From Octopus sinensis (Eukaryota), in contig NW_021834332.1 in assembly GCF_006345805.1 (NCBI RefSeq), forward strand, positions 1 to 50,987: DNA of 50,987 bases, read 5' to 3'. The notes under the pieces are model-generated. The model had not been told where the DNA came from. It did not search any database and saw only the letters and a list, made by a program, of their open reading frames with translations. This document shows positions 6,247 to 48,614 of this stretch, piece after piece. The position numbers and the translations under genes are program-made. Within the stretch, counting starts at the first letter, position 1; each line of letters begins with the position of its first letter.

Positions 6247-6354
6247 CTGTTTGTTCCGGTGGTCGTAACGGGGTCTTCGTTGCCTGATACCTCCGTTGTC
6301 ATTTCCATTTCCAAAGTAGAAGTCTGATTCCAATCACCACCTTGAGAACCATTG
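6247..6354 (-). CDS. Repeat exon M1, 108 nt, phase 2-2: (S)NGSQGGDWNQTSTLEMEMTTEVSGNEDPVTTTGTN(S/R)
   Basis: ttccag|CAATGG...AAACAG|gtaatg; only this frame is stop-free; one of 16 paralogues. Confidence 0.75.
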
Positions 6355-7099
6355 CTGGAACGAATAGATATATATATACATGTATGAATGAAAGCGCACG
6401 TGTGCATGCATGCATGTATGTATGTATGTATGTATGTATGTATGTATGCATGTATGCATGCATGTATGTATGTATGTATGTATGTATGTATGTTTGTATG
6501 TATGTATGTATGTATGTATGTATGTATGTGTGTATGTATGTGTGTCTATGTATGTATGTATGTATGTATGAATGTATGTATTAATGTATGTATGTATGTA
6601 TGAATGTATGTATGTATGCATGATGTATGTATGTATGTATGTTGTCTATGTATGTATGTATGTATGTATGAATGTATGTATTAATGTATGTATGTATGTA
6701 TGTATGAATGTTTGTATGTATGCATGTATGTATGTATGTATGTATGTATGTATGTATGTATGTATGTATGTATGCATGTATGTGTGTGTATGTATGATTG
6801 TATGTATGTATGTATATATGAATGTATTATGTATGTATATATGTATGTATGTATGTATGTATGTATGCATGTATGTATGTATGCATGTATGTATGTATGT
6901 ATGATGTATGTTATATATGTAGTATGTATAGTATGTATGTATGCACGCATGCTGTATGTGTATGTAGTATGTATGTATGGATGTATGTATGTATGTATGT
7001 AGTATGTATGTATGTTGTATGTATGTATGCAGTATGATGTATGCATGTATGTATGTCTATCTGAATGCATATAAACTTGTACCTTTTACGTATTTCAGC

Positions 7100-9215
7100 A
7101 ATGTTGATTGCTTGATGACAATCAACATTATGAAAAAATCACACAACTACACCCCGCAAAAAATGAAAACTCTATCGTCACTAATTAAAACCCATGGAAA
7201 GGAATAACAACCAAGAGATTGACTTTCTAACAATCTTTAAAAGCAAGCCTAGCCTCTTCTATGGTCTGCCAAAAATACATAAAAGCCAAATTATAAATGA
7301 AACCATTAAAAAATCACCAAAGACATACACACAACCCTACCGGGGGACCTAAAACTACGACCCATTGTAGCTGGCCCAATCTGTGAAACCACAGATTAAG
7401 TCTTTTTATGGACATCCTCCTGAAACCCTTCCTTAAACATATCGATAGTCATATCAGAGATGACTTGGATCTGTTTAAACACACTTCGAAAAAAAGTCAA
7501 GGAAGAAACAATCATGGTTTCATTTTATGTAGTTAATTTTATACCAGTATACCTCATAATTATGGACTAGAGGCAATACAGTTCTGGCTGGACCAATTTC
7601 CGGAAGAAATACCAAAAAGGATCAGTAAAGAATTCATTACTAAATCGGTTGAATTCATCCTACGTAATAACCACTTCATGTTTGACAATACATTTTACCG
7701 TCAAAAATCCGGAATTGCTATGGGTACAAGGGCAGCACCAGTCATTGCGAACCTAACAATGGGCTACCTGGAAATAATTGTTTAGCAGGAATCTTTATCG
7801 ACCTTTGGAAACCCCCTCTCTCAATACATAAAAGAGAATTGGAAACGATTCCTGGAAGATTGTTTTATACTCTGGAATGAAAACACAGATAAACTCCTAA
7901 AATTCAAAAACCTATTGAACAGCATCAACCCAAATATACAGTTCACAATGGAATACAACCAAAAGAGTTCCATTCTTAGATATACTAATTAAAAAAATTA
8001 CCTTAAAATAGAAACAGACATTTTTTACAAAGCCACAGAGGCTAAACAATACCTACTTTTTGATTCATGCCACCCAAGACACACTAAAACAAATATCCCC
8101 TTCAACCTTGCAAGAAGGATATGAACAATAGTGTCAGAACAAAATACAGGAACTTTAGACTACAAGAACTCAACAAAAACACCCTAATTGACAGACATTA
8201 CCCAGCTTCAACTCATAGAGGATGGGATCAGACGGTGCAACAGAATCGACATAGAAACTTTGAGAAAAGTTAAACACAACAACACACCTTCCCCGAAAAT
8301 ACTTCCTTACATAACCACATACAATCCCAGAAACAAAGAAGCCTTCACCATCATCACCCAGAATTTACCAATACTTCATAAGGACCCCAAATTAAAGGAA
8401 ATTCTAAACATACATAAAATCATTAAAAGCTACAAACAACCTAAATCACTTAAAAAGATTCTCACAAAGGCAAAATTGTTTTCTGAAATTACGGATGCAA
8501 AAGTAAAAAAATGTGGTAGACCAAACTGCGCAACATGCCCAACCTTCTAGAAGGATCAGAATTCCTCTTCAAAGAGGGACAAAAATTCAAGATCAAATCT
8601 AATTTTACTTGTGCTTCTGAAAACATAATTTATGTCATAAGATGCTCGGGCTGCCACCAAAACTACGTGGGATCCACGGGACTATCACTCAGACGTAGAT
8701 GCACACTGCATCGACAACAGATTGCATTCCCAGAATACAGAATGATACCCTTTAGTGAGCATATTGAGAAATGCGCAAAGCAACTACTACCACAATTTTT
8801 AATCTTCCATTTTATCAATGTGCTATTGGAACACCAACTCAAATTAGACTAAACAACGAAACATTCTTCATTGAAAAATATAAGCCCAAACTTAACCACT
8901 CTAACATTCTTATACAGAGAAACTCACCCCATTAAATAAAAGTGAGAAGAAATATAAAGCGATTACCTCCCTTACACCGGAAGAAATCACTTATTACCTC
9001 CCCTTACCTGGAACTCTTCTTTACACTTCATAACGAAGACATAACATGATTTTTTGAGAAATTTAAAAAGTTAACAAGAAACCGGTAATTTCTTCAAAAA
9101 CTATGTCACTGTATGCAAAAATTTTATAACATTCTTCTGACATAATGACTCAAATATATTTTTTAACCTTTTAAAACAAGCCTTCAGTAGTTTTTTCACT
9201 TTTTACTATTTTCTA
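7100..9215 (+). mobile_element. 5'-truncated, decayed Penelope-like retroelement (RT + GIY-YIG endonuclease)
   Basis: Frameshifted motifs FYGLPKIHK, LRPIVAG, GIAMGT, KRFLEDCF, YLLFDSCHP, CGRPNCATC, IIYVIRC..NYVGST; 3' boundary approximate. Confidence 0.9.
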
Positions 9216-9407
9216 TACATATATATATATATATATATATATTTTGCACCCCCCCATATATATATATATACATGTATGTATATATATATATATATACATA
9301 CACACACACACACACACACACACACACACATATATATCTTTTTCTGTGCCCTTAAGGTATTGCAAAGGGAGGTCATCCTTCCCTCGTCAACCTAAGTGAT
9401 AAACACG

Positions 9408-46051: not shown

Positions 46052-46159
46052 CTGTTTGTTTCCTGGGTCGTAACGGCGTCTTCGTTGTCTGATACCTTCG
46101 TTGTCATTTCCATTTCCATAGTGAAAGTGTGATTCCAATCTCCACCTTGAGAACCATTG
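46052..46159 (-). CDS. Repeat exon M15, 108 nt (copy of M5)
   Basis: AG/GT intact; open frame. Confidence 0.72.
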
Positions 46160-48506
46160 CTGGAACGAATAGATATATATACATGTATGAATGAAAGCCC
46201 TCGTGTGTATGCATTTATGTGTGTGTATGTATGTATGTATGTATGTATGTATGTATGTATGTATGTATGTAGGTAGGTAGGTATTATGTATACATATGTA
46301 TATATTATATATGTATGTATGTATGTATGTAATGTATTTTGTATGTATGTATATATGTCTGTAAGACATGTATCTATGTATGTTTGTATGTATGTATGTC
46401 TGTATGTATGCATATATGTATGTATGTTTGTATATATGTATGTATGTATGACACGTATATATGTATGTACGTATGTATGTATGTACGTATGTATGTATGT
46501 ATTATATGTATGTATGTATGTATGTATGTCTGTATGTATGTATGTATGCATGTATATGTATGTATGTATATATGTATGTATGTATGTATGTATGTATGTA
46601 TGTATGACACGTATATATGTATGTATGTATGTATGTATGTATGTATGTATGTATGTATGTATGTATGACACGTATATATGTATGTATGTATGTATGTATG
46701 TATGTATGTATGTATATGTATGTATTATGTATGACACGTATATATGTATGTATGTATGTATGTATGTATGTATGTATGTATGTATGACACGATATATGTA
46801 TGTATGTATGTATGTATGTATGTATGTATTGTATGTATGTATGTATGACACGTAATATGTATGTATATATGTATGTATGTATGTATGTATGTATGTATAT
46901 GTATGTATGTATGTATGACACGTATATAGTATGTATGTATGTATGTATGTATGTATGTATGTACGTATGTATGTATGTAATCTTTATGTATGTATGTAAG
47001 TATGTATGTATGCATGTATGTCTGGATGCATATAAACTTTATACCTTTTACTTGTTTCAGTAATTTCAAGGCTTCTTTTATTGAAGGGTTTTTTTAATCG
47101 AATAAATCGAATTCAGGACTTTTTTCGGGGTAAACCACACATGTATAACCATATATATATACGCATGTCTATTGTACACACACATACACACACACACACA
47201 CAGACACACACACACACACACACACGCGCGCGCAACCATACACACACAATACAGACGAGGTTGAACCAGAAAGCAATGTGACCGAAATTAGTTTTTGGCT
47301 CATCTTGGTTTACTCAAAGCTGAGTCAAAAACTGATGCAAATATAAACGGCATTATTTTCTGATTCATTCGCGTGTATTCATGTGAGCGTATATATCTAT
47401 ATGTATATGTATATAAGAGAAGGTGTGAGATTTGTGATTTGAGTATTCGGTTAACGATCGTAAAGTTGCGTGTTCGATTCCCGGGTGTCAAATCTTCACT
47501 TGGTGTCAAAAATGAGTTGTAACTATATTTCGATGAGCCAGCCTTGTCACACACTGTTTCACGCTGAATCTCTCTGAGAATTACGTGAAGATTCCACCTG
47601 TCTATGGAGAGCTCTGCCACCTAATCGTTATTTTGAAGAGGAAGCTATTCCGTTGAACGTATTAACTGGAATCCTGAACGTCGTAACCGACAGTGTTACA
47701 GTTTAGATAAATAAGTGGATGTAAGTGTTGTGAGTGGGTGCGGGTGCGTGAGTGTGTCTGTGTGTACTAACATACACACTGCCCACCCGCACGTATACAC
47801 CACACATGCACACTAATATATATATATAATATATAATATATATATATATATATTATATATAATATTATATTATTATATATATATATACATATACATATTG
47901 CATATATATACTATATATATATATATATATACATGTATGTATATATATATATATATATATACATATAATATGCATAATATACATATATATATATATACAT
48001 GTATGTATATATATATATATATATATATATATATATATACATATACATATGCATATATATGCATATATATATATATATAATATATATATATATATATATA
48101 TATATATAATATCTTTTTCTACATATCTATCTATCCATCCATCTATGTATGTATATATATATATATATATATATATATATATATTATATATATATATAAT
48201 AGAACATATTTGTGTATAATCTACTTGTGCGATATATACATAGGAACGCTAACGATAGATTTGAAATTGCATTGATACAGACAGAGCACATGTTGAATGT
48301 TTTGACGGAAGATTTATAAATCTATAAATTTATAAATAACAGGCACACAATTCTGTCAGATTTTGATAAAATATTGCCTGATTTCATTGAAATGGATCTT
48401 TAAATCTGACACACCCTTGTATTTTTATTGAACAAGATTATGACAACCAAGTCTCAATAAATTAACGTAATGTCACTATGGTTAACTTTAATGTGGTTAA
48501 AAGTAC

Positions 48507-48614
48507 CTGTTTGTTTCCTGGGTCGTAAGGGGGTCTTCGTTGTTTGATACCTTCGTTGTCATTTCCATTTCCATAGTGGAAGTGTGATTCCAATCACTAC
48601 CATGAGAAGCATTA
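48507..48614 (-). CDS. Repeat exon M16, 108 nt (copy of M6)
   Basis: AG/GT intact; open frame. Confidence 0.72.

What the first reader, a model, noticed from the sequence alone, without database searches (positions are those of the whole stretch)
6247..48614. Every exon is skippable in frame: potential combinatorial or mutually exclusive splicing
Seen: all intact exons start and end in phase 2, and the junction codon AG+C/T always gives Ser, so any subset or order-preserving combination stays in frame. There are nine distinct peptide variants among the intact copies. Donors range from consensus-like (gtaacg, gtaatg) to weak (gtactt, gtagtt). Inference: the locus could tune stalk length or generate Dscam-like isoform diversity; constitutive inclusion is equally possible.
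Basis: inference. Interest (0 to 1): 0.7.

Follow-up and report, generated by a model that had tools for sequence, protein, structure and literature searches.

The report
Octopus tandem exon repeat glycoprotein tail
One 108-base exon-like unit occurs 16 times in this stretch of octopus DNA and likely lengthens the predicted sugar-coated tail of a likely secreted protein; the copies stay in frame because they are duplicates of one unit, so Dscam-style splicing diversity remains untested and looks unlikely.

Summary
Observation confirmed: 16 copies on the minus strand, 15 in frame, phase 2-2, Ser junction, nine peptides. The symmetry is one inherited fact, not fifteen: the copies are whole exon-plus-intron duplicates in near-identical blocks. 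The same exon occurs elsewhere only on C13439 and on C13, right after exon 7 of a PAN-domain gene and right before an assembly gap. That exon 7 ends in phase 2, the only open frame of the repeats. The unit likely derives from the family's last exon. Dscam-like features fail: no frame, steric or U12 enforcement, no specific docking site, copies recombine, pN/pS 1.2-1.4. 'Weak' donors match the U1 consensus as well as the host's other donors. About seven variants look robust. Best reading: an exon-repeat array giving a long, predicted glycosylated acidic tail, mostly spliced in, length set by DNA copy number (0.6); variable-count splicing as in Schistosoma SmPoMuc 0.22; mutually exclusive 0.05. 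No RNA data bear on it.

The parts
48507..48614 (-). Repeat exon type A (108 nt, donor gtactt)
46052..46159 (-). Repeat exon type B (108 nt, donor gtagtt)
44521..44628 (-). Repeat exon type C' (108 nt; mosaic, 5' part like D, 3' part like C)
42492..42599 (-). Repeat exon type D (108 nt)
38941..39048 (-). Repeat exon type E (108 nt, donor gtaatg)
35985..36092 (-). Repeat exon type F (108 nt, donor gtaatt)
34833..34936 (-). Out-of-frame copy of type C' (104 nt; four 1-base gaps, possibly sequencing error)
32840..32944 (-). 105-nt D-like copy (possibly an error variant)
31261..31368 (-). Repeat exon type D (108 nt)
27668..27775 (-). Repeat exon type E (one base from 38941)
17434..17541 (-). Repeat exon type A
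14983..15090 (-). Repeat exon type B
13454..13561 (-). Repeat exon type C
11441..11545 (-). 105-nt D-like copy, identical to 32840
9846..9953 (-). Repeat exon type D
6247..6354 (-). Repeat exon type E
5925..6410 (-). One core duplication unit: acceptor flank, exon and about 320 nt of downstream intron; units are separated by (CATA)n tracts on the sense strand
1..13887 (.). Higher-order block, 98.6% identical to 21442-35263
21442..35263 (.). Second copy of that block
11123..19908 (.). Higher-order block, 97.5% identical to 42193-50987
42193..50987 (.). Second copy of that block

Best explanation
The window holds 16 tandem copies of a 108-nt exon-like unit that likely belong to the 3' end of an octopus PAN-domain gene on C13, where they would add Thr/Ser-rich, acidic 36-residue repeats with two N-glycosylation sequons each to a likely secreted protein, most copies likely being spliced in together. 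Steps: (shown) the unit is exon plus flanking intron, duplicated singly and in blocks, with recombination-like mosaics; (shown) the host's exons 1-7 and the first two array exons read as one stop-free frame of 430 codons; (inferred) the family's last exon gained an internal donor at +108 and was amplified by unequal crossing over; (inferred) tail length is set mainly by DNA copy number; (inferred) occasional skipping would escape NMD and give a passive ladder of lengths, but exon identity is not a code.
For: The exon is found only on C10803 (window), C13439 and C13 in two searches, 25 matches each (lower bounds). On C13 two copies follow exon 7 of a PAN gene and precede an N gap. Exon 7 ends in phase 2; joined frame 430 aa, 0 stops. 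Paralog B's last exon has the same acceptor flank and first eight residues as the first array exon, and its own acidic repeats lie inside one exon, so they are all included; their number differs in the O. vulgaris protein P0007. Stop and splice-site retention beyond neutral expectation. All 15 intact window copies keep two sequons, 10-12 Ser+Thr and 5-8 Asp+Glu. pN/pS 1.2-1.4 and exon divergence equal to intron divergence (11.5 against 12.6%, 13 chosen copies), so the residues are not conserved as a code would need. 42 of 153 site pairs fail the four-gamete test; the two most diverged copies (74, 77%) lie at the array edges. Donors match U1 consensus at least as well as the host's other donors. 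Exon-like sequence is in contigs of three DNA runs from two studies.
Against: No transcript evidence either way. The window does not overlap the gap flanks except in common repeats, so the placement is inferred. No database protein with these repeats was found, and no model of this host gene turned up; both are weak negatives. The closest precedent, SmPoMuc, has transcripts with 1-100 repeats from at most 20 genomic copies (PMC2576457 passages), so arrays of this build can vary a lot at RNA level. pN/pS near or above 1 also fits relaxed or absent function, or mild positive selection. The signal peptide and lack of a membrane anchor are by inspection only.
Confidence: 0.6

Rival explanations
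1. Variable-count cassette splicing, as in SmPoMuc: transcripts carry widely different numbers and subsets of repeat exons, perhaps regulated, tuning tail length and glycan load.
For: All intact copies are symmetric, so no subset is punished. Same build as SmPoMuc: exon plus intron units separated by microsatellites, about 20 copies, transcripts with 1-100 repeats. The (CAUA)n tracts before the acceptors differ widely in length; CA-rich tracts as splicing-factor sites is recalled knowledge, untested here.
Against: Donor strength by U1 count does not differ among copies and is not below the host's other donors. Acceptors are nearly identical to each other and to paralog B's last-exon acceptor. 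No RNA support.
Confidence: 0.22
2. Dscam-like mutually exclusive choice of one repeat exon per transcript through competing RNA pairings.
For: Tandem exon duplication often yields mutually exclusive exons, by duplicating one arm of an intronic stem (PMC6071210). Intron 7 holds one (UAUG)n run, and every run on the sense strand of the window is the complementary (CAUA)n.
Against: Lengths are multiples of three; introns 1048-10126 nt; all GT-AG. Best duplexes of unit flanks with intron 7 or the downstream region (-19.5 to -24.9 kcal/mol downstream flank, -38 to -39 upstream flank) are matched by control introns (-19 to -26; up to -40). A (UAUG)n run also lies in intron 5, about 0.3 such runs are expected per 3.3 kb per strand, and three nearer (CAUA)n runs lie in intron 7 itself. 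The unit folds no better than shuffles (z -0.3). Dscam paralogous exons are anciently diverged without gene conversion (PMC3236188 passages); these are 66-97% identical and mosaic.
Confidence: 0.05
3. The array is not used: the host gene is silent, or it ends before most copies, and the copies are recent neutral duplicates whose number the assembly may also inflate.
For: pN/pS not below 1. The large blocks differ mostly by 1-base indels (40 of 44 indel events; 4 substitutions between 754 and 11163), as a doubled assembly path or a very recent duplication would. No protein model found for the host gene.
Against: No stop and no lost AG/GT across a tree of 1.16 substitutions per site: both together in 1 of 3000 neutral runs. 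The host's exons 1-7 are intact and in frame with the array. Several distinct variants are in short-read contigs of three runs, so the array itself is real.
Confidence: 0.13

Closest known systems
Schistosoma mansoni polymorphic mucins, SmPoMuc (PMC2576457; passages read)
   Same: Each protein repeat is one exon inside an exon-plus-intron genomic unit; units separated by microsatellites; about 20 copies; homogenised; region resists assembly; predicted acidic glycosylated repeats.
   Different: Here the exon is 108 nt rather than 27, C-terminal rather than 5', carries N-sequons, sits in one member of a four-gene cluster, has diverged edge copies (SmPoMuc shows no such gradient), and no variation among transcripts is shown. 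No sequence homology was tested or is claimed.
Spider silk gene with iterated exon-intron units, and Coccidioides SOWgp (seen only as described in PMC2576457 passages)
   Same: Iterated exon-intron units under concerted evolution; SOWgp has better-conserved central copies and varies in repeat number, as suggested here.
   Different: Silk exons are described as under purifying selection; here pN/pS is 1.2-1.4. Their splicing was not read by me.
Dscam1 mutually exclusive exon clusters (PMC6071210 part 1 of 5, PMC3236188 passages)
   Same: Tandem array of same-length homologous exons in a gene for an extracellular protein.
   Different: Here the exons encode a low-complexity repeat, not a folded-domain part; copies are young, mosaic and partly identical; no docking site found.
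Molluscan PAN/Sushi proteins; Octopus LOC106871881, LOC106871895, LOC115218571, LOC118765760
   Same: Host gene family: PAN_1 in the first exon above the Pfam cut-off, shared exon layout, nearest Atlas cluster 'PAN/Sushi', Mollusca, score 0.91.
   Different: The named proteins have short tails or in-exon repeats; none has an exon array. All are uncharacterised; 0 papers held any of the four gene ids.
CD44 variant exons, CD46 STP exons, LPA kringle IV-2 (recalled, from no call)
   Same: Symmetric exons that change the length of a glycosylated region by splicing (CD44, CD46) or by DNA copy number (LPA).
   Different: CD44 and CD46 are membrane stalks with old, distinct exons; LPA repeats are folded domains.

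Membership tests
Dscam-type mutually exclusive exon cluster | One exon per transcript, no exon-to-exon joins | not testable with these tools
   No RNA run covered the exons.
Dscam-type mutually exclusive exon cluster | Tandem homologous exons of equal length and frame | tested here: met
Dscam-type mutually exclusive exon cluster | Docking site complementary to selectors beside each exon | tested here: inconclusive
   No duplex better than control introns; one microsatellite candidate at about chance rate; the region in the gap and cross-species conservation could not be examined.
Dscam-type mutually exclusive exon cluster | Anciently diverged paralogous exons without gene conversion | tested here: not met
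   82-99% nt identity, identical twins, 42 of 153 four-gamete failures; assembly chimerism could add to the last.
Mutually exclusive exons in general | Enforcement by frameshift/NMD, steric block or U2/U12 mismatch | tested here: not met
   Multiples of three, introns over 1 kb in the window, all GT-AG with U2-type donors.
Exon-intron tandem repeat genes (SmPoMuc build) | One protein repeat per exon in a duplicated exon-plus-intron unit separated by microsatellites | tested here: met
Exon-intron tandem repeat genes (SmPoMuc build) | Concerted evolution of units | tested here: met
   Mosaics, block duplications, diverged edge copies.
Exon-intron tandem repeat genes (SmPoMuc build) | Repeat number varies among transcripts or individuals | not testable with these tools
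   Only contigs were available; contig depth is no copy number.
Mucin-like glycosylated repeat | Ser/Thr-rich repeat that is glycosylated | tested here: inconclusive
   10-12 Ser+Thr of 36 and two sequons, few prolines; glycosylation itself untested.
PAN/apple-domain proteins (host gene) | PAN_1 domain above the Pfam cut-off | tested here: met
   23 bits against 21.4, E 7e-5, on C13 exon 1.
Sushi-domain proteins (host gene) | Pfam Sushi match | tested here: not met
   No Sushi hit; only look-alike clusters carry it.

The most novel reading that the evidence does not exclude
The array is a splicing-tunable glycan scaffold born from a duplicated last exon: the single (UAUG)n run in intron 7 competes for the (CAUA)n tracts before each repeat exon, so microsatellites act as docking site and selectors and set how many and which of some 20 repeats enter each transcript, giving a mollusc a Dscam-like or SmPoMuc-like diversity generator.
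Probability: 0.06. Interest if true: 0.8.

Novelty: new member of a known kind. Interest (0 to 1): 0.3.

Why it matters
If the best reading holds, it is a clear, young case of a glycoprotein tail being built from a terminal exon, with a sister gene reaching a similar end by repeats inside one exon, and it names what likely fills a chromosome gap. That is of modest interest. If transcripts vary widely in repeat number, it would be a second lophotrochozoan case beside SmPoMuc and a testable source of protein diversity in octopus. My searches found no paper on this locus; they cover only the held open library, and no supplements were searched.

Tried and rejected
RNA: no RNA holder listed for window:5900-6400; five guessed-RNA runs (X5, X8, X9, X14 on the C13 exons; X17 on window 9580-9998) gave no exon cover, only hits to a dispersed repeat in the intron. 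Protein search with one repeat: 3 candidates, none scored. Profile search with alignment A2: 130 hits; I read 5 of them and none holds the repeats. AlphaFold of P0002: mean pLDDT 32.4, unusable, so no fold search. Pfam: no family for the repeat. Unit folding z -0.3. The upstream-flank duplex test returned nothing because masking removed the query; redone unmasked. The identity figures printed are wrong for the 105-nt copies (ungapped) and were replaced. The exon-against-intron indel contrast is biased because only 108-nt copies were chosen, so I do not rely on it. Summed contig depth was not used as copy number. Earlier-findings look-ups returned nothing. Literature searches gave mostly unrelated papers. 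Rejected: that the unit is a transposon part with chance AG/GT (frame fits the host, stops avoided); that it is a membrane stalk (no anchor evident in paralogs).
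Full report
Observation. The window is a whole unplaced contig, C10803, of a 2.7-Gb genome. Blastn finds 16 copies of one exon-like unit between 6247 and 48614, all on the minus strand. Thirteen are 108 nt, two 105 nt and one 104 nt; 15 of 16 are in frame and stop-free, all end in AG and begin with C or T, so joins give Ser; the 15 give nine peptides; introns are 1048-10126 nt.

Host gene. Two genome searches find the exon only on C10803 (16), C13439 (7) and C13 (2) (lower bounds). On C13 the two copies lie at 12443857 and 12444105, just before an N gap at 12444773. 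Upstream lie seven exons of a gene with a hydrophobic N-terminus and a PAN_1 domain. Its relatives are named Octopus bimaculoides and O. sinensis proteins; P0004 and the tail of P0005 match neighbouring genes on C13 at 100%, so the region is a cluster of four paralogs, one of them cut by a gap. Exon 7 ends in phase 2, and exons 1-7 plus the two C13 copies read as 430 codons without a stop. Among 16 distinct 108-nt copies only that frame is open (0 stops against 14 and 16). A neutral simulation kept all copies stop-free in 2.4% and all AG/GT in 1.1% of 3000 runs (detection required near-intact splice motifs, but blastn found no other copy in the window). The window does not overlap the gap flanks, so placing it in the gap is inference. 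C13439 ends with a 78-nt relic copy that has TAG after 15 codons and ATTAAA at +159, a candidate last exon. If all 25 copies were real and included, the protein would be about 1260 residues.

Origin. Paralog B's last exon has the same acceptor flank, the same (CATA)n tract and the same first eight residues as the first array exon. Its acidic repeats lie inside one exon and differ in number between P0005 and the O. vulgaris protein P0007. I infer that the host's last exon gained a donor at +108 and that exon plus intron was amplified. Blocks 1-13887 and 21442-35263 are 98.6% identical, 11123-19908 and 42193-50987 97.5%. Copies are mosaic (42 of 153 site pairs fail the four-gamete test) and the two most diverged lie at the edges, as unequal crossing over would give. 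So phase symmetry is a single inherited property.

How many variants? In the first block pair, 40 of 44 indel events outside simple repeats are single bases and only 4 substitutions lie between 754 and 11163: a very recent duplication or a doubled assembly path. The 104-, 105- and 107-nt copies differ from siblings by 1-2 base gaps. In contigs of three DNA runs, 0 of 11 indel rows fell in the exon, and all laid depth at 9870 reads Pro where three window copies read Leu; these runs need not be the same animal, contigs drop rare variants, and 36 variant rows were not shown. About seven types look robust. The array itself is real, and run X3 shows variants absent from the window.

Is it a diversity generator? 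The eight distinct 108-nt window exons are 82-99% identical in DNA and 66-97% in protein; pN/pS is 1.2 (window), 1.27 (13 core) and 1.41 (all 16), from non-independent pairs; exon and intron divergence are alike. What is kept is composition: two sequons, 10-12 Ser+Thr and 5-8 acidic residues in all 15 intact window copies. Dscam paralogous exons, by contrast, are anciently diverged without gene conversion (PMC3236188, passages). Of the known ways to enforce exclusivity (PMC5740500, passages; PMC6071210, part 1 of 5), frameshift/NMD, steric block and U12 mismatch do not apply. A docking site was sought by duplex energy in intron 7, the 140-nt intron and the region after the array; control introns scored as well. 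One (UAUG)n run in intron 7 could pair with the (CAUA)n tracts before each exon, but such runs are common here and three nearer partners lie in the same intron. All donors match 7-8 of 9 U1 positions, the host's other donors 5-7, a crude measure that does not back a weak/strong split.

Mechanism. Most likely (0.6) the copies are spliced in series into a long, predicted glycosylated, acidic tail on a likely secreted PAN protein, with length set by DNA copy number and some passive in-frame skipping (at an assumed 1% per exon, about a fifth of 25-exon transcripts would lack one). Variable-count splicing (0.22) has a real precedent in SmPoMuc, whose build is nearly the same and whose transcripts carry 1-100 repeats from at most 20 genomic copies (PMC2576457, passages). 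Silent or unused copies 0.13; mutual exclusion 0.05. Tandem exon duplication is common and includes large arrays such as OBSCN (PMC9013439, part 2 of 4). No RNA evidence was obtained, and the protein's function is not shown: the fold model was unusable and relatives are uncharacterised molluscan PAN/Sushi-like proteins.

Verdict. A real exon array, a new member of a known kind, in an unstudied octopus gene cluster (0 papers for four gene ids). The combinatorial or Dscam-like reading is untested and mostly contradicted by the anatomy. Interest 0.3.

Noticed in passing
G000:C13:12340000-12477200 (L001-L008, L017-L023): Cluster of four paralogous PAN-domain genes with one shared exon layout; two are annotated (P0005, P0004), one is cut by a gap at 12339760, and the array's host had no protein model in my searches.
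   Followed up: partly
L023, C13:12402952-12403167: Paralog B's last exon holds a 9-residue acidic repeat whose number differs from the O. vulgaris protein P0007: an in-exon length polymorphism parallel to the exon array.
   Followed up: partly
L010:4859-4936, minus strand (C13439): 78-nt relic copy with internal 15-nt repeats, an in-frame TAG after 15 codons, a retained donor and ATTAAA at +159; candidate last exon.
   Followed up: partly
window 7100-9000, + strand; copies near 28500-30400, 39750-41700 and C13439:16043-16936: Broken retroelement with a weak GIY-YIG match (E 0.003, below cut-off), likely Penelope-like (recalled label), duplicated along with the blocks.
   Followed up: partly
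window 17952-18365, minus strand: Mariner-type transposase fragment (Transposase_1, E 1e-6), also in the 42193-50987 block by the duplication.
   Followed up: no
about window 9600-9790 and the same part of every unit: The distal downstream intron of each unit matches a dispersed repeat at 71-79% on many chromosomes and is the only part hit by RNA contigs.
   Followed up: partly
whole window and C13439: All detected TATG/CATA microsatellite runs have one orientation ((CAUA)n on the sense strand); tracts range from tens of bases to about 900.
   Followed up: partly
P0001 against P0002; P0003 against P0006: Annotated O. bimaculoides isoforms differ by 35 residues in the third-exon region, and by different C-termini after exon 7; annotated alternative splicing in this family lies outside any repeat array.
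   Followed up: no
L005:3965-4104: The intron between the first two array exons is only 140 nt, against more than 1 kb for all others.
   Followed up: partly
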